IMG/VR virus record: IMGVR_UViG_3300006217_000025
Coordinates: 14,347 to 78,346 of that record
Source: a virus
Taxonomy: Duplodnaviria; Caudoviricetes
DNA: 64,000 nucleotides
Strand: one strand, 5' to 3'
Below are positions 14,556 through 49,450 of the stretch, piece after piece. How positions within the stretch are numbered: position 1 is the stretch's first letter; each line of letters opens with the position of its first letter. The notes beneath the pieces are model-generated. The model was not told the DNA's origin, searched no databases, and saw only the letters and a list, made by a program, of their open reading frames with translations. Both the position numbers and the translations under genes were made by a program.

Positions 14556-14629
14556 TGGTAGCAGCAACAAGAATTGAACTTGTATTATACGATTATTAGT
14601 CGCAAGTTTTACCATTAAACTATGCCACT
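14556..14629 (-). tRNA. tRNA with AAT anticodon (Ile, atypical)
   Basis: Cloverleaf AGTGGCA/TGCTGCT; anticodon arm TGCGA-CTAATAA-TCGTA; T arm ACAAG-TTCAATT-CTTGT; encoded CCA. Confidence 0.7.
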
Positions 14630-14816
14630 ATAATAGAAAAGACCTATGTTTCCATAAGTCTTCTTCCGCACCGAGTGCCATTTAATTGTAATTGTAATTT
14701 AAGAATCTCTTTCTACTCTAGGCAGATAAGCTAAATTTGTGCCAATAAAGATAATTAAGAATTTATCTCCATGTTAAAAAATAGAAATATTGTCCATTAT
14801 ATAATGCTAACATTTA

Positions 14817-14902
14817 TGGTGGATGTTCTTAGACTCGCACTAAGGGTGTTTCTTACGTCACAGCTTTACAGGCTGCTGCCATCGCTACTAGGCTAAACAT
14901 CC
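14817..14902 (-). tRNA. tRNA-Tyr(GTA)
   Basis: GGATGTT/AACATCC acceptor, CTGTAAA loop, long variable arm, CCA; T-loop TGCGAGT is non-canonical. Confidence 0.85.
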
Positions 14903-14910
14903 ATATTTTT

Positions 14911-15001
14911 TGGCGCACAACTGAGGTGTCGATCCCCAAACGTATCTCTACGTTCCCACTGTTTTCAAGACAGGTGCTAAGGCCGCTTAGCGTAGTTGTG
15001 C
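14911..15001 (-). tRNA. tRNA-Ser(TGA)
   Basis: GCACAAC/GTTGTGC acceptor, G73, CTTGAAA loop, long variable arm; T-loop ATCGACA. Confidence 0.88.
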
Positions 15002-15640
15002 ATGGCGTGAATGCTAAAAGTCGAACCGAACATATATGGTGAACAATCATGTTAGTTAAAAACAATAGATTTTCATCTATACATCACTTAGCAGGTGAGT
15101 CCTAAGACCTCTTAGGTTTAATGTGCAAGATATATAAGAGGTTTTCGCATTTTTTTACTCCATAAGTCTGTAATCCTTCGTTCCCGGCTACTCCTTTACA
15201 ACTCATTATTTCAACATTATGGCTTGTTTAGAGATTAGCTTTTCTCAAATCTTCTCTTATATTTTTGATATGCCTAGAAAAGTAAGTATACAATGCATTT
15301 TTGTTATACCATACCAAACACACAAACGTATATATATAAGTTCTATACACAATATATAACTAGCCCCAACACGCTGTTATATCACATCTTCAGTCTGCTG
15401 ATCAAACAGAATTTACAGTCAATCACACACATATAAAGTTGCACAATATATTTTATGATTTCTGCAATAGATGCTTACCAATAGGTCTTACGTATCTACT
15501 CAAAAAGTTTTCCATAATATTTTCTATAATTAGATGTAAGTGTTTTATTAGTTCCAATTAGTTGTATTCGTTTTATTAGCAAGAACAACATTTACATGAC
15601 TGTAGATATTTTTATGAAAACATTAGTGTTATTTAATTAT

Positions 15641-15717
15641 TGGTTGCTAACGCCTTGGAGTTGAACCAAGTTTTCAAGGGGTATGAACCCTCGCAAGATA
15701 CCGACCTTCCGCCAGCT
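15641..15717 (-). tRNA. tRNA-Met(CAT), initiator-like, atypical fold
   Basis: Anticodon arm GAGGG-TTCATAC-CCCTT with 3 G-C pairs; ...GCAACCA end; extended acceptor and short D arm. Confidence 0.65.
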
Positions 15718-15721
15718 ATAT

Positions 15722-15798
15722 TGGTGGACTCTGTAGGATTCGAACCTACAATCTTTCGGTTATGAGCCGACAGCTTTAACCAACTAAGCTAAGAGTCC
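15722..15798 (-). tRNA. tRNA-Ile2(CAT)
   Basis: GGACTCT acceptor and CGG-CTCATAA-CCG arm, typical of lysidine tRNA-Ile2. Confidence 0.85.
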
Positions 15799-15814
15799 GA
15801 AAGATAACAAAATT

Positions 15815-15898
15815 TGGTGTGGGTAGTAGGATTCGAACCTACACGCCGAAGGCGCCTGATTCTAAGTCAAGTGTGTCTGCCAGTTTCACCATACCCAC
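15815..15898 (-). tRNA. tRNA-Leu(TAG)
   Basis: GTGGGTA/TACCCAC acceptor, CTTAGAA loop, variable arm, CCA. Confidence 0.92.
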
Positions 15899-15911
15899 AA
15901 TTTTCATAAGA

Positions 15912-15985
15912 TGGGGGAGAAGAGAGGCCTCGAACCTCTGAAACAGAAAGAAGTGATTCACAGCTATCTGTTTTACCACCAAGTT
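15912..15985 (-). pseudogene. Degenerate tRNA remnant (His GTG-like)
   Basis: T arm AGAGG-TTCGAGG-CCTCT and CCA end intact, CTGTGAA loop present; 5' acceptor strand not found. Confidence 0.4.
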
Positions 15986-15988
15986 AAA

Positions 15989-16180
15989 TTAGCAGTTGGT
16001 TAATGTTAATTTCTTTCTTTTTTTACGATATTGTTTTTCCTTTTGATGTGCCACATATTTTTTTAATAATTTACAATTACCACAATTATTTTTGTTTTTG
16101 CAACACCAGCAATAATCTGTATCATCCCAAAACCATTCAGGGGGTTGTGGTTTTGCTTTTCTACGTTTTTTCTCTGCCAT
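15989..16180 (-). CDS. Small basic Cys-cluster protein inside the tRNA array
   Basis: AGGAG SD before ATG 16180; CWCC-x5-CxxC. The track start at 16246 overlaps tRNA-Pro. Confidence 0.6.
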   Translation of the reverse strand: MAEKKRRKAKPQPPEWFWDDTDYCWCCKNKNNCGNCKLLKKYVAHQKEKQYRKKRKKLTLTNC

Positions 16181-16212
16181 ATTTATTCTCCTAATTTGAA
16201 GTAAATATTTAA

Positions 16213-16289
16213 TGGTTGGGAAGACAGGATTCGAACCTGTGACCATCTAGTCCCAAACCAGATGCACTACCAAACTGTGCTACTTCCCA
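16213..16289 (-). tRNA. tRNA-Pro(TGG)
   Basis: TGGGAAG/CTTCCCA acceptor, TTTGGGA loop, canonical T arm. Confidence 0.92.
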
Positions 16290-16294
16290 ATAAA

Positions 16295-16370
16295 TGGCGG
16301 GCACTACAGGATTTGAACCTGTGACCTATTGATTAACAGTCAACCGCTCTGCCAACTGAGCTAAGCACCC
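16295..16370 (-). tRNA. tRNA-Asn(GTT)
   Basis: GGGTGCT/AGTGCCC acceptor, CTGTTAA loop, GCCA end. Confidence 0.92.
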
Positions 16371-31422: not shown

Positions 31423-31994
31423 AAAAACCAAGACAAAGAATTTTATATAATAACTATGATTTAGATTTTGAGGGGGCAAAAGAAGAAGCAATTGAAAGAT
31501 ATTATGATTTTTGCGATTTTATTAAAAAAGAAATAGAAGGCAACTATGAACCAAGTGAAGAAAAAATTTGGGAAACTGCTCATGAACTAGATGGATTTTT
31601 TTGGGAAGAATTCCAGAATGATTTTGAAAAATTTATAGGGAATGATGTATTTATCATTCAAGGCAATATAGGAAGGTGGAATGGGGTTGCAAGAGGTGGA
31701 TTTACATTTAGTTCACTTGATGAATTATCTAGGGCATGGAAAGATTGTGATTACATTAAAATTTATGATGAAAATGGTCATTTATATATTGAATGTTCTC
31801 ATCATGACGGAACAAACTTCTATGAAATAAGAAAACTTACTGAAAAAGGAAGGGAATATTTAAATAATCATAACTATTATGATAAAGAAGAACTTCACAA
31901 TAAACTTATTAAAAATCCATATAGTGTTTTACCTAACTATGCTAACAAAGTATGGGGAAGTAAAAAAATAAAATATGAAGCAATTGAAAAATGA
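31419..31994 (+). CDS. Hypothetical protein
   Basis: ATGA coupling; G.W.G...G and HHDGTN motifs. Confidence 0.6.
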   Translation: MKKPRQRILYNNYDLDFEGAKEEAIERYYDFCDFIKKEIEGNYEPSEEKIWETAHELDGFFWEEFQNDFEKFIGNDVFIIQGNIGRWNGVARGGFTFSSLDELSRAWKDCDYIKIYDENGHLYIECSHHDGTNFYEIRKLTEKGREYLNNHNYYDKEELHNKLIKNPYSVLPNYANKVWGSKKIKYEAIEK

Positions 31995-37040: not shown

Positions 37041-37475
37041 ATGGAAAAAAAATTATCTCTCACAGAATGGATTAAAAGATCATTTGGTGATGTAAGTCAA
37101 GAAAAATTAAAAAAACTAAAACAGTCTAAAGATGTCCTAAATACTTATATTAAGTATTTGTTTTTTTTAAAAGAAGAATTAATTAACAATTATCCTAAGA
37201 GTGCAGCGTATGTTGAGTCTCATTTAGTGCAACCGCATAGGCTTTGCAATAGATGTGGAAATTACATATTAAAATCTGATTTAGAACAATATCCGTATCA
37301 ATGTATGTATTGCGATGAAGATTTATTTAGCATTGAAACTCATTTAAGAACAAATGATTATGGACAATTAGTTAATGATGAGATAAGTATTTTTGCTTAT
37401 TGTGATTTGATTGAACAAGTGTCTGCTTTATTATGTTTAGATGATTGGAAAGGAGATAGTATAAATGAAAATTAA
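37041..37475 (+). CDS. Hypothetical Zn-ribbon protein
   Basis: CNRCG...YQCMYCDE. Confidence 0.6.
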   Translation: MEKKLSLTEWIKRSFGDVSQEKLKKLKQSKDVLNTYIKYLFFLKEELINNYPKSAAYVESHLVQPHRLCNRCGNYILKSDLEQYPYQCMYCDEDLFSIETHLRTNDYGQLVNDEISIFAYCDLIEQVSALLCLDDWKGDSINEN

Positions 37476-37704
37476 TGGACAAGTAGTAGTTGGTAAAGAA
37501 TTTGCTTATGATGGCTGCCATAAAATTTATATTATTGAAGATGAAGAAGATAAGAAAGAGGCTATAGACGGATATACAATTTTGCCTATTAGTTTATTAA
37601 AGAAAACATATGAAAATAGTTGTTCATTAAGATTTATTCATAATTGGAAATTAAATAAGACATATGTTTTACAATTTGAAGAAAATGTAACATTTGAAGA
37701 TTAA
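37465..37704 (+). CDS. Hypothetical protein
   Basis: FAYDGCHKIY motif; coupled. Confidence 0.55.
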   Translation: MKINGQVVVGKEFAYDGCHKIYIIEDEEDKKEAIDGYTILPISLLKKTYENSCSLRFIHNWKLNKTYVLQFEENVTFED

Positions 37705-38518: not shown

Positions 38519-38740
38519 AAGAATGTCAATAAATATTTATATGAAGGTGAGTTTTGCTAGGCTTCATCAGCTTTGGGAACTATAAATGTAGAATCTGATT
38601 TACAAGGACTCAATAAATTCATATTAGATGCGATCAGAGCTTGCGATACAGGTAAATTAAAGATTGGAGGTCTTGATAGTGTGAATGATTTACCTGATAG
38701 AACAATTCTTAGAGGAAAGGGGCGAAACGTAAAGAGATAA
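38519..38740 (+). pseudogene. Remnant of the C-terminal part of a second reverse transcriptase
   Basis: Translates KYLYEGEFC*ASSALGTINVESDLQGLNKFILDAIRACDTGKLKIGGL...LPDRTILRGKGRNV, collinear with the C-terminus of 41784-43082. Confidence 0.85.
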
Positions 38741-39945: not shown

Positions 39946-40344
39946 ATGACATTAGATGAGTATGATAAAAAAATAAACTCTTATATAAAACAATTATCAT
40001 CTCTATATGGAGATGAATGGGAAAAGCTTTATGAAGAAATTTCACAATTACAAAAAGATTATATGAAAAGTGTATTAATAGAATATGAGAAAGAAGTTAA
40101 TTGTAAAGCAAAAGAATGTATTTATAATTTATTGCAATATGCAATTGAATGGAGTGAAAGTGGAAATTCAATTGTTAACGTTGATTCAAAAGAAATTGCT
40201 GATGAAGTTGAAGAGATTATATGGGAAGAAATTGGTGTTTATTTGTTAGACTGTGAAATATATAAAGAAGATAATCATTGGTCTATTGATTGTATGTTTG
40301 CTGGCAATTATGTTCCATATTGGGATGGCTGGAAAGACGAATAA
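39946..40344 (+). CDS. Hypothetical protein
   Basis: GGAGG SD. Confidence 0.6.
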   Translation: MTLDEYDKKINSYIKQLSSLYGDEWEKLYEEISQLQKDYMKSVLIEYEKEVNCKAKECIYNLLQYAIEWSESGNSIVNVDSKEIADEVEEIIWEEIGVYLLDCEIYKEDNHWSIDCMFAGNYVPYWDGWKDE

Positions 40345-40412
40345 TTATAAAAAGGATAATAGTAAAATGAAAGACTTAAAAGAATATAGTAATAGGAAGG
40401 TTAAGAAAGCAA

Positions 40413-40703
40413 ATGAAAGAGCTTAATATAAAAATGTATGAAGAAGAAATTGGTGAAGAGTGGATTGTAATGAATGTCCCCGGTAACGTTTCTGATAGTG
40501 AAATTGCATATGCTGTACACATGGCTAGTAAATATGCTTGGATTGACGAAGATGATATTAAAGAAAATTATGATGAGTTGTTTGATGATATGCTTAAATT
40601 AAAACAAGAAAACAATGGACAGTATGTATTCATGTCATATTTAAAAATGACAATTGGTGCAAAATTTAAAAAAGGAAAATATGATTTTGAAATTGAATGG
40701 TAG
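40413..40703 (+). CDS. Hypothetical protein
   Basis: Co-directional ORF. Confidence 0.55.
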   Translation: MKELNIKMYEEEIGEEWIVMNVPGNVSDSEIAYAVHMASKYAWIDEDDIKENYDELFDDMLKLKQENNGQYVFMSYLKMTIGAKFKKGKYDFEIEW

Positions 40704-40721
40704 AAAGGTTGGGTTAAGAAT

Positions 40722-41030
40722 ATGAAAAACTTAAACACTATGGATACATTTGGAAATGGTTTTAGAATTGAAAGAGATGGGAAAATATTTACATTAACAG
40801 AAGAAGAAATGAGCGATTTCAGATATTTAGATCAAGCGACTACAGGAAGGTGTTGCTTAGAATTCTATAGTTGTAACGATGATGAAAAAGAAATTATTGA
40901 TAAAATGATGAAAGATGAAGAAGTCTGCTACAACATTGAAGATGATGTTTTATCTTTTATTTTTGAAGATTGTGAAAAAATTGAAAGGATTGTTATTAAA
41001 GATTATATTAAAAATTTTAATACGAATTAG
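40722..41030 (+). CDS. Hypothetical protein
   Basis: Co-directional ORF. Confidence 0.55.
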   Translation: MKNLNTMDTFGNGFRIERDGKIFTLTEEEMSDFRYLDQATTGRCCLEFYSCNDDEKEIIDKMMKDEEVCYNIEDDVLSFIFEDCEKIERIVIKDYIKNFNTN

Positions 41031-41045
41031 ACTACGCGTATTAAG

Positions 41046-41372
41046 ATGAATAAAAGAGGGGAAATTATGGATTTAGAAAAACTGAAAGATTGTTATAGGA
41101 GACTGGATAAAGCATTAGAATTTGATGGTGATTTTCAAGACATGTACGATAATTTATCGGGGATCGTTTTAGATGTTATGAATGATTTGTTAATTGTAAT
41201 TAGGAGTGGAAATGATGAAGTTTCACCTAAATTAACTAGAAAAGAAAAAAAGATGGTTAAAAAGGCTTTAGATTATTATGGGGATAGCCTTGCAGATACA
41301 ATAGGATACAGTGCTGGTGAAAAATATTGGGATTTAATAAATAAATTTCAAAATAAGAGAAAGGATGCATAA
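41046..41372 (+). CDS. Hypothetical protein
   Basis: Co-directional ORF; true start probably the ATG after GAGGGG. Confidence 0.5.
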   Translation: MNKRGEIMDLEKLKDCYRRLDKALEFDGDFQDMYDNLSGIVLDVMNDLLIVIRSGNDEVSPKLTRKEKKMVKKALDYYGDSLADTIGYSAGEKYWDLINKFQNKRKDA

Positions 41373-41802
41373 AATGAGTTATAAAGTTGTGTGTACAGGC
41401 GATAGTGTTAAATGGTTTGATCACTATCAAGATAGTGTTAATTATGTCAAAAAAGAGGTAACAAAGGAAGTAATAGAACTATATGAAAATGATGAAATTG
41501 ATAAATATGGGGTGCAAGATATTTTATTTGACTTATATACATATATATATCATACACGAGGATTTATACATCCGAGTTTAAGAAATGAGTACGAGATCGT
41601 GGAATATAAAATAAAAGAAGCAAATAACTTAGAGTTTATTGGACAGATTATTGATATTTTTGAAGACTTTTTAGAAAAGAGAGGAATTCATATTCACAAT
41701 GTCGAACAAGACAAAGATGTCGCCCTTATTTATGGAGAAGATTATTTTGAATTAGAAGATAGCCTGAAAGATATGCTCAAAAATTGGGTGGTTATTGTAT
41801 AG
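41365..41802 (+). CDS. Hypothetical protein
   Basis: Coupled ORF directly upstream of the RT. Confidence 0.55.
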   Translation: MHKMSYKVVCTGDSVKWFDHYQDSVNYVKKEVTKEVIELYENDEIDKYGVQDILFDLYTYIYHTRGFIHPSLRNEYEIVEYKIKEANNLEFIGQIIDIFEDFLEKRGIHIHNVEQDKDVALIYGEDYFELEDSLKDMLKNWVVIV

Positions 41803-43082
41803 AAGTGGATATTTTAATAAAAAAGATGTTTGAATATGAACGTTGGAAAGAGTTACTTGAAATTGCTTCTGAAAAAGAGTTAGATAAGGATTTAATTATC
41901 AAATTTATGAAACCAGATGAACGAAAGAAATTGGCTTATATTATTGCTTCGGATAGTTATACTATTGCTCCCCCACATATCGCTTTTATCCCAAAAGACG
42001 ATGGCACTATGAGAGAAGTATATGTAAACGAAGATTTAGATAGGATAGTATTAACTTTAATAAATAATGTTCTTTGCGAAATTTTTAAAAATAAAATTCA
42101 TCCTAAATGTGTATCATATCAAAAAGGATTAGGGACACAAATGGTAGTTGAACAAATTTCAAGAGAAATTACTCAAATGGGTATTGATAATCCTCATATA
42201 GAGCGCTGTGGTTATAAAAGTGATTTTTCTAAGTATTTTGATAATGTGTCTTTAAAAGCTATTGACAGGGTATTTAATGAGTGTGAACGGGGACTAGGTT
42301 ATGAGTATAATAAGCATCCCGTTTTTAATTTGTTGCGGAGATATTATCATCAGGATTTATATTTTAATAAAGATGGGAAATTGGGCAATAGATATCAAGG
42401 GCTCAAACAAGGGTGTGCAGTGGCTAGTTTTCTAGCAAATGTCGTTTTGTATGAATTAGATGAATTTATGTCAAACAAATATAGGATTTATTATAGATAT
42501 AGTGATGATTTAGTTGCAATCGACAAAAATACTGATGATGTTATTGATGATATCAATCGAGTTATTTGTAAATATGGCGTTACATTGAATCCTAAAAAAG
42601 TAGAACCAATCTACAAAGATGAATGGTTTAAGTTTTTAGGATTCATGATCAAAGGTAGCCAAATCACTTTATCTAAAAAACGCATCAAGAATTTTGAAAA
42701 GGAAATTAGAAAAAGAAGCGTTGATAAACGAAAATGCTCTGAAAGTAAGGCTAGATATCTAATCATGAAGTATTTATATGAAGGCGAACGGGCATGGGCA
42801 ATGAGTTGTTTGAGTTGTATTAACGTTGAATCTGATATAGCTGAAATGAATAAGTTTATTATGGATTGCATTAAGGCATGTAAAACCGGAAAGAAAAGAA
42901 TAGGGGGACTAGGAGTTGCTTATAATCTACCTGATAAAACAATTATAAGAGGCAAGGGGAAGCATGTTACCTCAAATAAGGTTAACAATGGGTATATTGA
43001 AAGATATTTGAGTGTACAGTGTCTTAGAAAAGATTTAAAGTACAATAGAGACTTATTCGATATTGTACTTAAAGGACTATAA
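41784..43082 (+). CDS. Reverse transcriptase (phage-type unknown group, UG27-like)
   Basis: IPKDDG..R, DFSKYFD, GLKQG, YRYSDD and FLGF motifs; true start probably GTG 41805. Confidence 0.9.
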   Translation: MGGYCIEVDILIKKMFEYERWKELLEIASEKELDKDLIIKFMKPDERKKLAYIIASDSYTIAPPHIAFIPKDDGTMREVYVNEDLDRIVLTLINNVLCEIFKNKIHPKCVSYQKGLGTQMVVEQISREITQMGIDNPHIERCGYKSDFSKYFDNVSLKAIDRVFNECERGLGYEYNKHPVFNLLRRYYHQDLYFNKDGKLGNRYQGLKQGCAVASFLANVVLYELDEFMSNKYRIYYRYSDDLVAIDKNTDDVIDDINRVICKYGVTLNPKKVEPIYKDEWFKFLGFMIKGSQITLSKKRIKNFEKEIRKRSVDKRKCSESKARYLIMKYLYEGERAWAMSCLSCINVESDIAEMNKFIMDCIKACKTGKKRIGGLGVAYNLPDKTIIRGKGKHVTSNKVNNGYIERYLSVQCLRKDLKYNRDLFDIVLKGL

Positions 43083-43108
43083 GATAAAGAAAAAGTTGAG
43101 GTGAAACT

Positions 43109-43357
43109 ATGAAGTTATATTTAATTTTAGTTGGTGGTGATTATATTAGGGATTCTCAAATTTATACAGGGGAAAACATTGATGGGGACATTTATGATGA
43201 TGATTCAACATGGAAAGATTTTTGTCCTACTCATGTTGTTGGCGTTGTATATGCTTCTACATATGAGAATTCAATTAAAAGATTTTTAGAATTATGCAGT
43301 GACTATGAAGAGTTTATGCTATCTGCATACGAAATTTCAAATGAGGTAATCTTATGA
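43109..43357 (+). CDS. Hypothetical protein
   Basis: GAGGTG SD, directly after the RT. Confidence 0.55.
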   Translation: MKLYLILVGGDYIRDSQIYTGENIDGDIYDDDSTWKDFCPTHVVGVVYASTYENSIKRFLELCSDYEEFMLSAYEISNEVIL

Positions 43358-43788
43358 CAATTTATGGACGATTGATTGAGGCAGGCCAATGTGGCTTGCC
43401 TTTTTATGTGGATTTTAAAAAGAAGAACTTGTTTGTTAACAAAAAATGTTTAATTAAACATGGGGTGGTTTTGGAAGATGAAGATATCATGGATGACAAA
43501 GACTTGATACAAATTTATGAGAATCCACTTGATTATGTCAAAATTCTATATGAAAACTTCAAAAATTCTTGGGGAGATAACAGAAGTAAATACTTTATTG
43601 CAAAGGACAGTAAAGAAATGTCATTTGAAGCGATTATAGAGGCTTGTAGTGGAAGTTTAGCTAAAGCTAGACTTGAGGGTTTTGTTTTATTAACTATTCT
43701 CACAGGAGAATTTAAGTGGGAATGGGGAAATAAATGGTTCTACCAAGATGATGGGGGACTTATTTTACTAAAAGAATGGTTTTATTAA
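43354..43788 (+). CDS. Probable RT-associated small protein
   Basis: F.VDF.K...KYF.A...A.ARLEGF...W..G.KWFYQ...L..LKEW pattern; I recall it beside this RT class, unverified. Confidence 0.55.
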   Translation: MTIYGRLIEAGQCGLPFYVDFKKKNLFVNKKCLIKHGVVLEDEDIMDDKDLIQIYENPLDYVKILYENFKNSWGDNRSKYFIAKDSKEMSFEAIIEACSGSLAKARLEGFVLLTILTGEFKWEWGNKWFYQDDGGLILLKEWFY

Positions 43789-43807
43789 AAAAGAGGAGGA
43801 AAATATT

Positions 43808-44506
43808 ATGAAAAAGAAAACGGCAGAAAGAATCGTGGAGTTGGTAAAGAATGGTGTAGATGTCAAAAAATTCAATGCATTAACAGATGAATTGACAATC
43901 GGTTTATCCACATCTAGAAATTTATTAAAGGTAAGGGAAGTAGAGATTGATGAGAGAAAAATTATTACTCTCGATACACCAAATATTGATATCGCAATTA
44001 AGACATTGAAAGCATTTAGTTATCAAGGCTATGATGCAGATACAGGAAAACATGAATTAGGATTTAATAGCTGGCTAAAGAATGAGGTATCATTTGCTAG
44101 TTTTATTTTTATGTTTCATAAACTGCATAAATGTGAAAGTCCCAATATTTCCTATTTAGCAGAGCAATGCTTAATGAATTTTAAACAAACTTATACAGTG
44201 GAGGCATTAAGAAGAATAAAAAAAATCGGGGTAGTAAAATTAGGTAAAATTAATCATGCTAATAAGCAAGATGTTGAAACAAGAATTTATGGGATGTTTG
44301 AAAGAATATATGAAGGTTATTATACAAGTGGTTTCTTTGAATATAAAAATGAAGCATGGAGAGATATTTGTAAATTATATTATGGATATTATACATATAC
44401 ATTTTTAAAGGAATATTTTCCGGAAAAACTAAATGGATTAGAAATTGATAGTGAAGAAGTAGAAGTAGCATATTTCTATATTCAACAATTAGAAAAAATT
44501 ATCTAA
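43808..44506 (+). CDS. Hypothetical protein
   Basis: GAGGAGG SD; 232 aa between RT and ncRNA candidate. Confidence 0.6.
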   Translation: MKKKTAERIVELVKNGVDVKKFNALTDELTIGLSTSRNLLKVREVEIDERKIITLDTPNIDIAIKTLKAFSYQGYDADTGKHELGFNSWLKNEVSFASFIFMFHKLHKCESPNISYLAEQCLMNFKQTYTVEALRRIKKIGVVKLGKINHANKQDVETRIYGMFERIYEGYYTSGFFEYKNEAWRDICKLYYGYYTYTFLKEYFPEKLNGLEIDSEEVEVAYFYIQQLEKII

Positions 44507-44530
44507 GTTTTTTTTGCTTTGTGTTGGGCT

Positions 44531-44712
44531 TGAATATAAGGTTTTACAAATGATAAGAGGCTCCGCCTCTTATCACACCCTTCTGGATATAAGGAGGATT
44601 GTGACCAGAAGACAGCAGGACGACAGGAGTCGCAGCTGCCTCGGGCGGTTCGGATTCTTACAGAATCCTCACAATATCTTAAAGAAAAACACCAGGTAAA
44701 ACATTATATTTA
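44531..44712 (+). ncRNA. Candidate RT-associated structured RNA
   Basis: Terminal inverted repeat 44533-44547/44696-44710 (14 of 15 pairs), 11-bp hairpin 44551-44575, further GC-rich hairpins. Confidence 0.65.
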
Positions 44713-44736
44713 TTAAAATTTGAAAGGAGCAAGATT

Positions 44737-45384
44737 ATGGTTAATTCGGTTTCAGAATTTCGGAAGAGAATAGGGGTACATATTACCACAAGGCATAATG
44801 GTAAAATGGAAGGGATGCACTCTTTGAGTACAAGTTGTTTAAAAAACAATTTCTGTAAAGAACGCTCAAAAAACAAAGCCTCTATTTGCTCACATTGTTA
44901 CGCTAGTAGGCTATTGAAAATGTATAAAAATACAGAATATTGTTTAAGCAAGAACACCGACATTCTAACAAAAAAAGTGCTAATCGAAGAAGAATTACCA
45001 ATATTAAATGTTTTATACTTTAGATTAGAAGCATTTGGAGATTTAATCAATACAATGCAAGTATTGAATTATTTTAACCTATGCAATAAGAATCCTCAAA
45101 CAAGATTTGCAATTTGGACTAAAAATCCACAGTTAATTGAACAAACTATTCATCAAGGACACCGAAAACCTCAAAATTTAAATGTGGTTTTGAGTAGTCC
45201 TTTTTTAAATAAAGAGATAAAGAATAAATATGATTTTGTTGATGTTATTTTTACAGTGTATGACAAAGAAACAATTGACAAAGAGAAAATTTTAATCAAT
45301 TGTGGTGACAAGAAATGTTTAGAATGTCTGAAATGTTATAAAAAGCATGAAGACTTAATTTATATAAATGAAAAAATTAAATAA
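44737..45384 (+). CDS. Cys-rich phage protein (GP88-like, radical-SAM-like Cys motif)
   Basis: SC...NFC...ICSHCYA, R..AFGDL, WTKN and C...KCLECLKCY motifs. Confidence 0.6.
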   Translation: MVNSVSEFRKRIGVHITTRHNGKMEGMHSLSTSCLKNNFCKERSKNKASICSHCYASRLLKMYKNTEYCLSKNTDILTKKVLIEEELPILNVLYFRLEAFGDLINTMQVLNYFNLCNKNPQTRFAIWTKNPQLIEQTIHQGHRKPQNLNVVLSSPFLNKEIKNKYDFVDVIFTVYDKETIDKEKILINCGDKKCLECLKCYKKHEDLIYINEKIK

Positions 45385-45397
45385 AGGAGGGCTAAAT

Positions 45398-45919
45398 ATG
45401 AAAAAAACACTTGAACAATTAATTTCAGAGGTTAAACAAGATATGTCAATTGCTTTGTTGCCATTTGATGATGCAGTTCCTATCGTATTGAACCCTAGGT
45501 TAACCCGAGTTTTAGGAAGAGCAAAACATAGAGGAGAAAAAAATATTGTAGTTGAAATTGCGAAGAATGTCTATGAATTAGCCGATGAACAAACAATTAA
45601 AAATGTTATTTGCCATGAATTATTACATACAGCTTTTCCTTTAGACGGGCATTTAGGACAGTGGAAATTTTATGCGAATAAAGCAAATATCTTAATGCCA
45701 AAATATAATATTACGAGATGTAATACAGATAAAGAATTATATAAAAGAAGGCACAAATGGTATAAGGTAAAGTGCTTAAAATGTGGAGAAACATGGGAAA
45801 CACACAACAAGACCTGTGTCAAGTATCCAGAAAGATACTATCATGTAACATGTGGTGGGAATTTAACAATATTAGATGAGAAGGGAAAACAAAATGACAA
45901 ACGAGGAAAGAGTAAATAA
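45398..45919 (+). CDS. SprT-like zinc metalloprotease
   Basis: HELLH motif, H...W, C-terminal CxxC; GGAGG SD before ATG 45398. Confidence 0.7.
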   Translation: MKKTLEQLISEVKQDMSIALLPFDDAVPIVLNPRLTRVLGRAKHRGEKNIVVEIAKNVYELADEQTIKNVICHELLHTAFPLDGHLGQWKFYANKANILMPKYNITRCNTDKELYKRRHKWYKVKCLKCGETWETHNKTCVKYPERYYHVTCGGNLTILDEKGKQNDKRGKSK

Positions 45920-46568
45920 ATTTAGAAACGAAAAAATCGCAGTAAACTGCAAAACAGAGGAAGAAGCAAAATCATTTATAGAGTGGTGCTATGAAAATGG
46001 AATTGAATGGGGGATTCCAGAGTTAGATGAAACACATTCAACTTGCTTTCGTTATTATAGGAATGAAACATGTTATGCCTTTGGTTTTGATGGAGACATA
46101 CACTTGGGATATGGCTCTAAACATTTTCACGAAGAAGAAGGCTATGAAGTCATAACATACAAAGACTTCATGAAAGAAAAGAAAATGACTAATTTAGAAT
46201 ATTATGTTTCAAAAGGTTTAATCAACGAAGGTGCTATGTTATGTGTTGGCGCTCATATTTGCAAATACGATGGTAAGTGTCATGATAAAGAGTGTTATAA
46301 ATGCGAATTTAATAATGATGTAAATTTATGTGTTAAAACATTGCTTGAAGAATACAAAAAGCCTATCAAATTAACAAGGTTTGAGTTTGATTACCTAGAT
46401 GTTTTGAGAGAATACAATAATCCAAACGATGAATTTAGTATATATTTCTGTGATTGCGTAAAAAAAAGCAAAGGATATTTTAAAGGCATTACAGATACAT
46501 CTATGACAATTCAAGAAATCTTAGATAATTGTGAAATTGTGGTTGATGATTATGATTTTGGAGAGTAA
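45894..46568 (+). CDS. Two-module hypothetical phage protein
   Basis: GAGAAGGGA SD; internal MTNLEYY at 46185 looks like a second gene start. Confidence 0.55.
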   Translation: MTNEERVNKFRNEKIAVNCKTEEEAKSFIEWCYENGIEWGIPELDETHSTCFRYYRNETCYAFGFDGDIHLGYGSKHFHEEEGYEVITYKDFMKEKKMTNLEYYVSKGLINEGAMLCVGAHICKYDGKCHDKECYKCEFNNDVNLCVKTLLEEYKKPIKLTRFEFDYLDVLREYNNPNDEFSIYFCDCVKKSKGYFKGITDTSMTIQEILDNCEIVVDDYDFGE

Positions 46569-46581
46569 AGGAAAATGAATA

Positions 46582-46920
46582 ATGAAAATGGAAAATAAAA
46601 TTTATAGCCAATGGGCATTTACTGAAAACGAAAGAGAAAAAGCAAGAATTAATAGAGAAATTTATAATGAATTAAAAACAAAATATAGAGTTTATAGACA
46701 CGATTTAAAACAAGATTTAAAAGATAAAGTAGATGTAAACTTTGATGAATATGATGTAGTTATCGGTAGAAGTGCTTGCTATCTTCATGGAGAATATACA
46801 GTATATAAAAATGCACCAAAATTAAGTGATGATGAGTTAGCATTGTTATGTGATAGTGGAAATTTATGTTTTGGGTATAAAAAAAGTGGTGTTAATGAAT
46901 TTTATGTATATGAAGATTAG
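46582..46920 (+). CDS. Hypothetical protein
   Basis: ELAL.CD.GNLCFGY motif. Confidence 0.55.
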   Translation: MKMENKIYSQWAFTENEREKARINREIYNELKTKYRVYRHDLKQDLKDKVDVNFDEYDVVIGRSACYLHGEYTVYKNAPKLSDDELALLCDSGNLCFGYKKSGVNEFYVYED

Positions 46921-46934
46921 AGGAGTGATGAAGA

Positions 46935-47159
46935 ATGACAATTTTATTAGCAAATGGTGAATTTGCATATATCACTGATATTTGTAATTGTGAGGATTGC
47001 AAAGCAAGAGGGGAAGTAGAATTTATAGTTGTTGATGAAAATCATGAACTCTTAGATTACCTTAAATATCATGAGTTGAAAGATAAATCAATTGTTAGTC
47101 ATTACAATCCAAAAGATTTATGTGAGTTGTTTCATAGAAAGTTGATTGGAAAGGTGTGA
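46935..47159 (+). CDS. Hypothetical protein
   Basis: CxCxxC; GAGGAG SD. Confidence 0.55.
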   Translation: MTILLANGEFAYITDICNCEDCKARGEVEFIVVDENHELLDYLKYHELKDKSIVSHYNPKDLCELFHRKLIGKV

Positions 47160-49374: not shown

Positions 49375-49450
49375 GGCAGGGTGGAGCAGAAGGAAGCTTA
49401 TCAGTCTTATTAGCTGAGGGTCGCAGGTTCAAGTCCTGCCCCTGCAACCA
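49375..49450 (+). tRNA. Initiator-type (fMet body) tRNA with TAT anticodon
   Basis: G1xA72 mismatch, G2-C71, C3-G70, A11-U24, A73, CCA; anticodon arm TCAGT-CTTATTA-GCTGA; T arm GCAGG-TTCAAGT-CCTGC. Confidence 0.85.

What the first reader, a model, noticed from the sequence alone, without database searches (positions are those of the whole stretch)
44531..44712. Architecture of the RT-linked RNA: a1/a2-like ends, long hairpin and mutually exclusive pairings
AATATAAGGTTTTAC (44533) pairs with GTAAAACATTATATT (44696) at 14 of 15 positions. Inside are an 11-bp perfect hairpin TGATAAGAGGC-TCC-GCCTCTTATCA, CTTCTGG/CCAGAAG, CGAC-AGGA-GTCG and GGATTCT-TAC-AGAATCC. GAGGATT and ATTGTGA (44594-44604) can alternatively pair with AATCCTC and TCACAAT (44664-44675), suggesting a switch or priming structure. 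Its GC content is well above the flanking genes.
Basis: partly seen in the sequence, partly recalled or inferred. Interest (0 to 1): 0.7.

Follow-up and report, generated by a model that had tools for sequence, protein, structure and literature searches.

The report
Phage UG27 reverse-transcriptase template RNA, variant form
The folded 182-base element is real and is most likely the template RNA of a published phage reverse-transcriptase system (UG27), here as one unusual multi-hairpin unit whose centre differs sharply between near-identical phages.

Summary
Every helix is at the stated coordinates, the element folds far better than shuffles, and it is a GC-rich island in the only non-coding gap of a + strand operon.

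The operon encodes a UG27 reverse transcriptase (PADLOC E 2e-156), the UG27 small accessory protein, and a 232-aa orphan that looks like a very divergent large accessory protein. UG27 RNAs were predicted in 2022. A September 2026 preprint showed them to be arrays of about 150-nt units copied into short ssDNA hairpins. This scan has met such arrays in at least 49 genomes.

The window's RNA keeps the family scaffold: a two-part closing stem, a GG/CC contact and a UAAAGAAA box. It differs in four ways: it is a single unit, it has several hairpins instead of one central hairpin, it lacks the UUCAAU box, and it has CAC where the start triplet AUC/AUG normally sits. A model built from 34 standard units scores it only 13.3 bits.

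Between phages 99% identical here, the centre differs at 17 of 81 positions, against 0.9% around it.

The "a1/a2-like" ends are the family's covarying closing stem, not a retron feature. The proposed switch is not conserved.

The parts
41784..43082 (+). Reverse transcriptase, 432 aa, UG27 group (class 2 UG/Abi), with the YSDD active site
   Evidence: PADLOC RT_UG27 E 2.2e-156 over 9-430; the next-best group, UG26, scores 3.5e-33. Pfam RVT_1 E 1.6e-18. RYSDD is seen in the translation. 2178 homologues at E<=1e-30.
43109..43357 (+). 82-aa ORF between the RT and the small accessory gene, found only in this lineage
   Evidence: No Pfam, PHROG, PADLOC or NCBIfam hit. Among about 160 UG27 loci, phmmer finds it only in the four 99%-identical loci. 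The region is not unusually structured, z 0.18, and it has its own ribosome-binding site.
43354..43788 (+). UG27 small accessory protein (sORF; cluster 346 of Mestre et al. 2022), 144 aa
   Evidence: PADLOC RTas346 E 1.4e-21 over the full length. phmmer hits 102 ORFs next to UG27 RTs in the fetched loci.
43808..44506 (+). 232-aa ORF in the position of the UG27 large accessory protein (bORF); sequence orphan, probably a very divergent short bORF
   Evidence: It matches only itself among 1.84 billion representative proteins. No phmmer hit to other loci's bORFs. hhalign gives two collinear weak matches to bORF profiles: residues 1-103 (probability 47%, E 2e-4) and 161-200 on the K..AW.D..K...YYT motif (probability 55%, E 1.2e-4).
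44531..44712 (+). The ncRNA unit as a whole (single unit, 182 nt)
   Evidence: Fold z -4.5. GC island. It lies in the only non-coding gap of the operon. Single copy in the 78-kb genome. No Rfam family matches.
44533..44547 (+). 5' strand of the closing stem: P1 (44533-39), G44540 opposite A44703, P1b (44541-47). GG 44540-41 corresponds to the family's conserved AAGG junction.
   Evidence: Pairing probability 0.96 (P1) and 0.99 (P1b) in all alleles. The homologous P1 and P1b covary in the family.
44551..44575 (+). H1: perfect 11-bp hairpin with a 3-nt loop. The stem is invariant in all alleles; one loop base varies.
   Evidence: Pairing probability 0.98. A like-sized hairpin (11-bp stem, 3-nt loop) holds the same place in the L066 and L067 units.
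44576..44651 (+). Variable payload. Most of the 17 differences from allele C (44562-44641) lie here, and its fold differs between alleles. GGAGGAT (44593-99) is an invariant island inside it.
   Evidence: 17 of 81 positions (44562-44642) differ from L058, against 0.9% over 7.6 kb, binomial P 1e-18. Allele-specific helices are shown.
44652..44668 (+). H5: GGATTCT-TAC-AGAATCC, invariant, abutting the predicted start site
   Evidence: Pairing probability 0.83-0.97. Other multi-hairpin units also place a conserved last hairpin 0-2 nt before the triplet.
44670..44695 (+). 3' box: triplet CAC (44670-72, the position of the family's AUC/AUG start), 7 nt, UAAAGAAA (44680-87), AACACCAG with CC at 44692-93
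   Evidence: It aligns column for column with the family's NNN-N7-UANAGRAA-NNNNCC-NN box. The preprint maps the cDNA start to the AUC of AUCNNNNNNNUANAG.
44696..44710 (+). 3' strand of the closing stem: P1b (44696-702), A44703, P1 (44704-10)
38524..38740 (+). Relic of a second UG27 RT: about 70 codons of the C-terminal region, with TAG in place of a conserved Trp and a decayed upstream part
   Evidence: RT_UG27 profile positions 287-385, E 6.3e-25, with stops inside. Translation shown.

Best explanation
The element is the template non-coding RNA of a phage-borne UG27 reverse-transcriptase system. It is transcribed on the + strand with the operon RT / 82-aa ORF / small accessory / 232-aa ORF.

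Its ends form the family's two-part closing stem (P1 and P1b). That stem presents a conserved 3' box (CAC-N7-UAAAGAAA-AACACC) to the RT complex. By analogy with the five UG27 systems tested in the 2026 preprint, the RT and its accessory proteins should start DNA synthesis at the triplet 10 nt upstream of UAAAG (44670-72). They should copy the enclosed hairpins 5'-ward and release a free single-stranded DNA that folds into hairpins. If synthesis stops at the only UUYA site (UUUA, 44543-46), the product is about 100-130 nt.

H1, H5, the closing stem and the 3' box are the constant scaffold. The centre is a payload that evolves fast while staying folded.

Shown here: the family assignment of the proteins, the architecture, scaffold covariation in the family, and payload hypervariability.

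Inferred: transcription, cDNA synthesis and its boundaries, and the requirement for the 232-aa and 82-aa proteins.

The biological role of UG27 cDNAs is unknown in the literature.
For: Proteins: the RT is UG27 (E 2e-156) and the 144-aa ORF is RTas346 (E 1e-21).

Literature:
- Mestre et al. 2022 (PMC9226505) tie UG27 RTs to clusters 346 and 337 and to a predicted ncRNA in gut phages.
- bioRxiv 10.64898/2026.09.22.753630 reports RT + sORF + bORF + ncRNA units. All three proteins were required, and the products were 50-100-nt ssDNAs starting at the AUC of AUCNNNNNNNUANAG and ending after UUYA.

Scaffold match:
- P1 / AAGG / P1b, then UAAAGAAA, then 4 nt, CC, 2 nt, then the P1b 3' strand, at the same spacing as in standard units.
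- L066's box TAAAGAAAAACATCA differs from the window's TAAAGAAAAACACCA by one base.

Family covariation: all 12 P1/P1b pairs show compensatory changes. On 138 distinct units, 90.9% of cells are paired against 62% in shuffles. The crossing pair G(AAGG):C(GCC) is GC in 127, AU in 10 and other in 1, and the window keeps GG and CC.

Strand: all 206 model hits in 100 loci lie on the RT strand.

Model score: inside the one intergenic gap the model gives a full-length + strand match, E 0.016.

Precedent for the variant form: multi-hairpin units occur in other UG27 loci (L026, L071, L146, L068, L035), in L068 beside a standard unit in the same array.

Payload:
- 21% divergence against 0.9% background.
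- Both alleles' centres fold at -24.6 kcal/mol; hybrids of the two average -21.0, and 17% are as stable.
- The same hot-spot pattern appears in L066 against L067 and in L026 against L071.
- The predicted cDNA folds at -27 kcal/mol, z -5.5.
Against: - A covariance model built from 34 standard units scores the element only 13.3 bits. That is no hit with default filters, and E 0.5 at rank 2 behind a chance hit in a 7-kb search.
- The UUCAAU box, the AUC/AUG/AUU triplet, the UGAG junction and the single long central hairpin are all absent.
- The 232-aa ORF is not demonstrably a bORF.
- The authors' own covariance models could not be run.
- The - strand folds slightly better in silico.
Confidence: 0.83

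Rival explanations
1. It is a regulatory or processing element unrelated to reverse transcription. Examples are a leader, attenuator or RNA switch for the GP88-like gene that starts 25 nt downstream, or an operon-end stabiliser, using the mutually exclusive pairings.
For: - It sits directly upstream of the RBS and ATG of 44737-45384.
- In allele A, an extended conformer forced through GAGGAT/ATCCTC is nearly isoenergetic with the minimum-energy fold (-60.5 against -61.2 kcal/mol), and ATTGTGA/TCACAAT has probability 0.33.
- The standard-unit model does not recognise the element significantly.
Against: - The alternative pairings are lost or disfavoured by 3-7 kcal/mol in alleles B and C.
- A sensor or attenuator would not tolerate 21% divergence in its core between 99%-identical phages.
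- There is no terminator-like or promoter-like signal and no Rfam match.
- The UG27 scaffold features are present at family spacing.
- In L026 the analogous unit lies 1.2 kb from the GP88 homologue.
Confidence: 0.07
2. It is a retron-type msr/msd RNA. The a1/a2 stem would position a branching guanosine whose 2'-OH primes msDNA synthesis.
For: - The logic is the same: an RT, an RNA closed by an inverted repeat, and an internal hairpin template.
- Conserved G residues lie at the stem junction.
- The priming mechanism of UG27 is not stated in the preprint.
Against: - The RT scores E 2e-156 on UG27, against 2.5e-09 on the best retron RT model listed, and 47.9 bits against a cut-off of 235 on NCBIfam retron_St85_RT.
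- The RNA lies 1.4 kb downstream of the RT, behind three ORFs, not directly upstream as in typical retrons (established knowledge).
- No retron effector gene is present.
- The 3' box is the UG27 one.
Confidence: 0.03
3. It is the template repeat of a diversity-generating retroelement, or some other repeat or mobile DNA element such as a MITE, att site or origin.
For: It has an RT nearby, a GC-rich island, terminal inverted repeats and a hypervariable centre.
Against: - There is no second copy or variable-repeat partner in the window or in the 78-kb genome.
- The substitutions between alleles show no adenine bias: A 4, T 7, G 3, C 3.
- The RT is UG27.
- A 1-nt deletion in allele C also rules out the overlapping 61-aa ORF as a coding sequence.
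Confidence: 0.02

Closest known systems
UG27 ncRNA array units (bioRxiv 10.64898/2026.09.22.753630, Sept 2026; predicted by Mestre et al. 2022, NAR 50:6084, PMC9226505)
   Same: - Lies next to a UG27 RT and the small accessory gene in a phage, on the same strand.
- Has a two-part closing stem with the AAGG junction, the UANAGRAA box 10 nt after the start position, and a CC two bases before the P1b 3' strand that can pair with the junction G.
- Has a GC-rich, fast-evolving, hairpin-forming interior.
   Different: - One unit instead of an array (the preprint's totals give about 5.8 units per locus).
- It lies after the third gene rather than between the RT and the accessory genes.
- 182 nt, against modes of 149 and 167 nt.
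- Several hairpins (H1, a variable middle, H5) instead of one central hairpin.
- No UUCAAU box, CAC instead of AUC/AUG/AUU, and a single A instead of the UGAG junction.
- An extra 82-aa gene, and a 232-aa orphan in place of the 300-370-aa bORF.
- It is not significantly detected by a model built from standard units.
Multi-hairpin UG27 units in other loci (L026:7389-7530, its counterpart in L071, L146:4121-4276 in a Gemmiger formicilis assembly, L068:5982-6164, two units in L035)
   Same: - Two or three hairpins follow the closing stem directly, with no UUCAAU box.
- The last hairpin abuts the start triplet.
- The first or middle hairpins are replaced between close relatives while the last is kept.
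- L026 and L071 even share the P1 sequence AATATAA/TTATATT.
- Four of them are likewise missed by the standard-unit model.
   Different: - There is no detectable sequence similarity in the hairpins.
- These loci carry further, standard units, and bORFs that are recognisable by profile.
- I could not align them well enough to build a subclass model.
Retron msr/msd RNA
   Same: An RT-linked RNA closed by an inverted repeat, whose internal hairpin is copied into a short ssDNA hairpin.
   Different: The RT belongs to a different family, the gene order differs, the conserved boxes differ, and a branched 2'-5' linkage is neither known nor testable here.

Membership tests
UG27 system (class 2 UG/Abi RT + sORF + bORF + ncRNA units) | RT of the UG27 group with an intact YSDD active site | tested here: met
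   PADLOC RT_UG27 E 2.2e-156 over the full length. RYSDD seen in the translation.
UG27 system (class 2 UG/Abi RT + sORF + bORF + ncRNA units) | Small accessory protein (cluster 346 / sORF) adjacent to the RT | tested here: met
   PADLOC RTas346 E 1.4e-21. 33-38% identity to 15 sORFs of other loci.
UG27 system (class 2 UG/Abi RT + sORF + bORF + ncRNA units) | Large accessory protein (cluster 337 / bORF) adjacent to the RT | tested here: inconclusive
   The 232-aa ORF is in the right place but is a sequence orphan. There are two collinear weak hhalign matches to bORF profiles, probabilities 47% and 55%.
UG27 system (class 2 UG/Abi RT + sORF + bORF + ncRNA units) | Phage or prophage context | tested here: met
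   The window is an IMG/VR virus record of 78 kb. It carries tRNA genes and GP88-like, SprT-like and lambda-P-like genes.
UG27 ncRNA unit | Two-part closing stem (P1, junction, P1b) around the unit | tested here: met
   7 + 7 bp around one G/A mismatch, pairing probability >=0.96. The homologous stems covary in the family. There is no variation within the window's own lineage.
UG27 ncRNA unit | 3' box AUC-N7-UANAG (the cDNA start at AUC) | tested here: inconclusive
   UAAAGAAA and the following ..CACC are present at family spacing, but the triplet is CAC. Other clades use AUG, AUU, CAU or UUC.
UG27 ncRNA unit | UUYA box (UUCAAU) on the 5' side of the central hairpin | tested here: not met
   Only AAA lies between P1b and H1. 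The sole UUYA is UUUA inside the P1b 5' strand. The box is also absent from the other multi-hairpin units.
UG27 ncRNA unit | One long central hairpin as the template | tested here: not met
   The minimum-energy folds of all three alleles have 4-5 separate hairpins. An extended single-hairpin conformer is near-isoenergetic only in allele A.
UG27 ncRNA unit | Tandem array of units | tested here: not met
   Single unit. No further model hit in 40000-47000 above chance. No other non-coding gap in the operon. Other motif-plus-stem hits in the window are coding and unstructured.
UG27 ncRNA unit | Significant match to a covariance model of the family | tested here: inconclusive
   My model R1 gives 13.3 bits: E 0.5 in 7 kb, and E 0.016 within the 230-nt gap. 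The same model also misses four other multi-hairpin units. The authors' models were not available.
UG27 ncRNA unit | RT-dependent short ssDNA copied from the unit | not testable with these tools
   This needs expression and ssDNA sequencing.
Retron | Retron-type RT | tested here: not met
   The best retron RT model listed scores E 2.5e-09, against 2e-156 for UG27. NCBIfam retron_St85_RT scores 47.9 bits against a cut-off of 235.
Retron | msr/msd immediately upstream of the RT, with a1/a2 repeats and a branching G | tested here: not met
   The RNA is 1.4 kb downstream of the RT, after three ORFs. No Rfam retron family matches.
Diversity-generating retroelement | Template repeat with a diverged variable repeat inside a target gene | tested here: not met
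   No second copy in the window or in the genome.

The most novel reading that the evidence does not exclude
The multi-hairpin, UUCAAU-less units may be a distinct functional class of UG27 template. This class would include the window's unit and those in L026, L071, L146, L068 and L035.

In this reading a constant first and last hairpin frame an exchangeable payload. That payload is diversified between otherwise identical phages under selection for the shape or sequence of the resulting ssDNA, for example as a decoy or ligand in a phage-host arms race.

The invariant GGAGGAU island would give every allele's cDNA an anti-Shine-Dalgarno-like AUCCUCC loop.
Probability: 0.1. Interest if true: 0.7.

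Novelty: new variant of a known kind. Interest (0 to 1): 0.36.

Why it matters
UG27 is a widespread phage reverse-transcriptase system. Its biochemical output is known (short ssDNA hairpins) but its purpose is not.

This locus is a minimal natural version with one unit. It shows which parts of the RNA stay fixed: the closing stem, the GG/CC contact, the UAAAGAAA..CC box, and the first and last hairpins. It also shows which parts are free to change. The standard UUCAAU and AUC boxes and the single central hairpin appear to be dispensable, or replaceable, in some lineages.

The 21% against 0.9% divergence between near-identical phages is direct micro-evolutionary evidence that the payload, not the scaffold, is what selection or exchange acts on. 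A one-unit system with three natural alleles would be a convenient substrate for mapping start and stop rules. It would also suit tests of whether payloads can be reprogrammed.

Tried and rejected
- **Rfam:** only tRNAs at gathering threshold on the whole window.
- **DGR or repeat reading:** no second copy.
- **Single-protein scan of IMG/VR:** only one close relative. The alignment-based scans were needed.
- **Exact published motif ATC-N7-TANAG:** absent from the element. The 5 matches elsewhere in the window are at chance level.
- **A home-made 'motif plus 12-bp stem' statistic:** not specific, 6 hits against 2.9 expected. The other hits (31505-31698, 37472-37630 and others) are coding and unstructured.
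- **The 82-aa ORF as a hidden RNA unit:** rejected, z 0.18 and it has an RBS.
- **ORFs after the RT relic as paralogues of the 82-aa ORF and the sORF:** no similarity.
- **Pattern scan of IMG/VR for the 3' half of the element:** nothing.
- **The search of protein representatives and the protein-atlas search on the 232-aa ORF:** only itself and no usable hit.
- **Complex prediction** (RT + sORF + 232-aa ORF as the partner): no verdict, score 0.00, partner folded poorly. This is not evidence either way.
- **Promoter and terminator scan:** nothing at the element.
- **Enrichment of GGAGG/CCTCC in UG27 payloads:** 22 of 87 against 11.6, z 3.4, too weak after testing 512 words.
- **A subclass covariance model for multi-hairpin units:** not attempted, because the units could not be aligned credibly.

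Full report
**1. The observation.**
- The closing repeat is 44533-44547 with 44696-44710, 14 of 15 positions paired.
- The perfect 11-bp hairpin is 44551-44575.
- CTTCTGG/CCAGAAG lie at 44580-86 and 44605-11, CGAC-AGGA-GTCG at 44621-32, and GGATTCT-TAC-AGAATCC at 44652-68.
- The two alternative 7-bp pairings lie at 44594-604 with 44664-75.

The + strand folds at -62 kcal/mol (z -4.5) and the - strand at -65.8 kcal/mol (z -6.4). The 182 nt contain seven maximal perfect helices of at least 7 bp, against 0.62 +/- 0.75 in dinucleotide shuffles. GC rises to 0.55 in a 0.22-0.35 background. The element fills the only non-coding gap (44507-44736) of a tightly packed + strand operon. It is single-copy in the 78-kb virus record that holds the window. 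No Rfam family matches it.

**2. The neighbours.**
- The 432-aa protein at 41784-43082 matches the PADLOC RT_UG27 profile over its full length at E 2.2e-156. The next group scores 3.5e-33 and the best retron RT model listed 2.5e-09. It carries YSDD.
- The 144-aa protein at 43354-43788 is RTas346, the UG27-associated small protein (E 1.4e-21).
- The 82-aa ORF between them has no relatives outside four 99%-identical contigs.
- The 232-aa ORF at 43808-44506 matches only itself in 1.84 billion representative proteins. Two collinear weak profile matches to large accessory proteins of other UG27 loci suggest a very divergent, short bORF: the N-terminal ER..L...G.D..KF and G.....N..S region (probability 47%) and the K..AW.D..K...YYT motif (probability 55%).

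**3. What is published.** Mestre et al. 2022 (PMC9226505) defined UG27 as a class 2 UG/Abi RT. They found it mostly in human-gut phages, linked to clusters 346 and 337, with a predicted structured ncRNA.

A preprint of 24 September 2026 (10.64898/2026.09.22.753630) reports that UG27 loci carry arrays of about 150-nt ncRNA units. Each unit has a main hairpin interrupted by an asymmetric internal loop with short conserved motifs, plus a basal hairpin and a pseudoknot. [quoted passage not shown] Synthesis starts at the AUC of AUCNNNNNNNUANAG and ends after UUYA. The role of the cDNAs is unknown. The authors note clades with units that their models miss. Earlier reports of this scan describe UG27 arrays in at least 49 genomes.

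**4. The family as seen here.** I fetched about 160 UG27 loci from IMG/VR, metagenomes and GTDB genomes and several contigs from exact-protein look-ups.

Standard units read as follows:
- P1 (7-8 bp), then CAAGG, then P1b (5 bp), then an A-rich stretch and UUCAAU.
- One long hairpin.
- A-U, then a triplet, N7, UANAGRAA, four bases, CC, two bases.
- The P1b 3' strand, UGAG, and the P1 3' strand.

The triplet differs by clade: ATG 91, ATC 56, CAT 42, ATT 20 among my candidates.

P1 and P1b covary strongly. All 12 pairs show compensatory changes in RNAalifold. On 138 distinct model-aligned units, 90.9% of cells pair against 62% in shuffles, and slid controls give 33-44%.

A mutual-information scan found one pair that crosses P1b. 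The second-to-last G of AAGG pairs with the second C of the ..GCC.. box: GC in 127 units, AU in 10, other in 1. This may be part of the published pseudoknot, but I could not see the figure.

All 206 hits of my model in 100 loci lie on the RT strand. That settles the strand question for the window despite the slightly better in-silico fold of the - strand.

**5. How the window's element maps onto the family.**

Kept:
- P1 (AATATAA/TTATATT).
- The AAGG junction (GG 44540-41).
- P1b (GTTTTAC/GTAAAAC).
- UAAAGAAA (44680-87).
- AACA-CC-AG before the P1b 3' strand, at family spacing.

L066, whose RT is 59% identical, has TAAAGAAAAACATCA where the window has TAAAGAAAAACACCA. L066 also has an 11-bp, 3-nt-loop hairpin right after its closing stem, like H1.

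Not kept:
- The UUCAAU box (only AAA).
- The AUC/AUG triplet (CAC at 44670-72).
- The UGAG junction (a single A).
- The single central hairpin.
- The array.

My covariance model R1 was built from 34 standard units. It aligns the element end to end exactly as described but gives only 13.3 bits. That means no hit with default filters, E 0.5 and second rank in a 7-kb exhaustive search, and E 0.016 if the search space is the 230-nt gap alone.

The same model also misses L026:7389-7530, its L071 counterpart, L146:4121-4276 and L068:5982-6164. These units lie in bona fide UG27 loci and have two or three hairpins in place of one, with no UUCAAU box. In L068 such a unit sits beside a standard one. The window's RNA therefore belongs to a multi-hairpin minority form of the family, not to a different system.

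**6. Natural alleles.** Contigs from independent samples carry the same operon at about 99% identity, with three alleles of the element:
- A: the window and L226.
- B: L060 and L227, 5 differences from A.
- C: L058, L059 and L061, 16-17 differences from A, including a 1-nt deletion.

Against L058, the centre 44562-44642 differs at 17 of 81 positions. The rate is 0.9% over the other 7.5 kb compared and 1.3% in the rest of the gap (binomial P 1e-18).

The closing stem, the H1 stem, H5 and the 3' box are invariant, apart from single changes in allele B at 44673 and 44695.

Allele C has a new 9-bp hairpin (CGAC-A-GCCTG AAGA CAGGC-GTCG), created by several coordinated substitutions. Both centres fold at -24.6 kcal/mol, whereas random A/C hybrids average -21.0 and only 17% are as stable. 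This is modest evidence that folding is maintained while the sequence turns over.

The substitutions show no base bias, so they are not DGR-like. The deletion rules out the overlapping 61-aa ORF as a coding sequence. The same pattern of divergence hot spots at unit centres is seen for L066 against L067 and for L026 against L071.

**7. The proposed switch.**
- In allele A, an extended conformer using GAGGAT/ATCCTC is almost isoenergetic with the multi-hairpin fold (-60.5 against -61.2 kcal/mol), and ATTGTGA/TCACAAT has probability 0.33.
- In alleles B and C the extended conformer costs 2.7-7.2 kcal/mol, and ATTGTGA/TCACAAT no longer exists.
- GGAGGAU and AUCCUC are invariant in all alleles, so they give no covariation.
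- I therefore rate a conserved switch as unlikely.

One oddity remains. Two of the five A-to-B changes (44600 T>G and 44673 A>G) hit the two partners of one ATTGTGA/TCACAAT base pair, yet they give G.G rather than a pair.

**8. Mechanism.** By analogy with the tested systems, I expect the RT complex to bind the closing stem and 3' box and to start at 44670-72. It would copy H5, the payload and H1, and stop near the only UUYA (UUUA 44543-46). The product would be an ssDNA of roughly 100-130 nt that folds well (-27 kcal/mol, z -5.5). None of this is shown for this locus, and the product would be longer than the published 50-100 nt.

Rival readings were considered and rated low: a leader for the GP88-like gene, a retron msr/msd, a DGR template, a mobile repeat, or a small ORF.

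**9. Verdict.** The feature is real and correctly linked to the RT. It is an already described kind of element in an unusual, minimal form. The scaffold-against-payload dissection and the micro-evolutionary hot spot are the useful additions. The retron vocabulary and the switch idea should be dropped.

Noticed in passing
window 38524-38740 (+): Relic of a second, divergent UG27 RT about 3 kb upstream of the intact one. About 70 codons are collinear with the RT C-terminal region (…YLYEGEFC*ASSALGTINVESD…RTILRGKGRNV). TAG replaces the conserved Trp, and the upstream part has decayed. The ORFs after it are not paralogues of the 82-aa ORF or the sORF.
   Followed up: partly
window 49375-49450 (+): A tRNA with anticodon UAU (ARAGORN calls it tRNA-Ile(tat)) stands alone in the late region, far from the cluster of eight tRNA genes at 14556-16370 on the - strand. 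Earlier first-reader notes propose an initiator-like body and ATA start codons. I checked only the anticodon.
   Followed up: partly
window 44600 and 44673 (allele B in L060 and L227): Two of the only five differences between alleles A and B fall on the two partners of one base pair of the alternative helix ATTGTGA/TCACAAT. The change is T-A to G.G, which is not compensatory. Unexplained.
   Followed up: partly
window 44593-44599: GGAGGAU is an invariant island inside the hypervariable payload in all three alleles, so a cDNA would carry the anti-Shine-Dalgarno-like AUCCUCC. An ATATAAGGAGG string also occurs between hairpins of a multi-hairpin unit in L035. GGAGG/CCTCC is only weakly enriched across 87 non-redundant UG27 payloads (22 against 11.6 expected, z 3.4).
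   Followed up: partly
alignment A7 columns 11/222 (standard UG27 units in L025-L131): A covarying pair crosses P1b. It joins the G of the AAGG junction to the C of the ..GCC.. box after UANAGRAA: GC in 127 units, AU in 10, other in 1. It may be part of the family's published pseudoknot.
   Followed up: yes
H1: PQ571274.1, 79354-80610: The cultured Bacteroides phage BS-TP1 encodes a UG27-type RT (42% identity over 98% of the query). The feature annotated under the match is called 'tail protein', which is probably a misannotation.
   Followed up: no
window 45400-47000 compared with L058 and L060: Immediately downstream of the GP88-like gene, the otherwise 99%-identical phages become mosaic, with different SprT-like and neighbouring genes. 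The UG27 module therefore sits at the edge of a recombination-prone segment.
   Followed up: no
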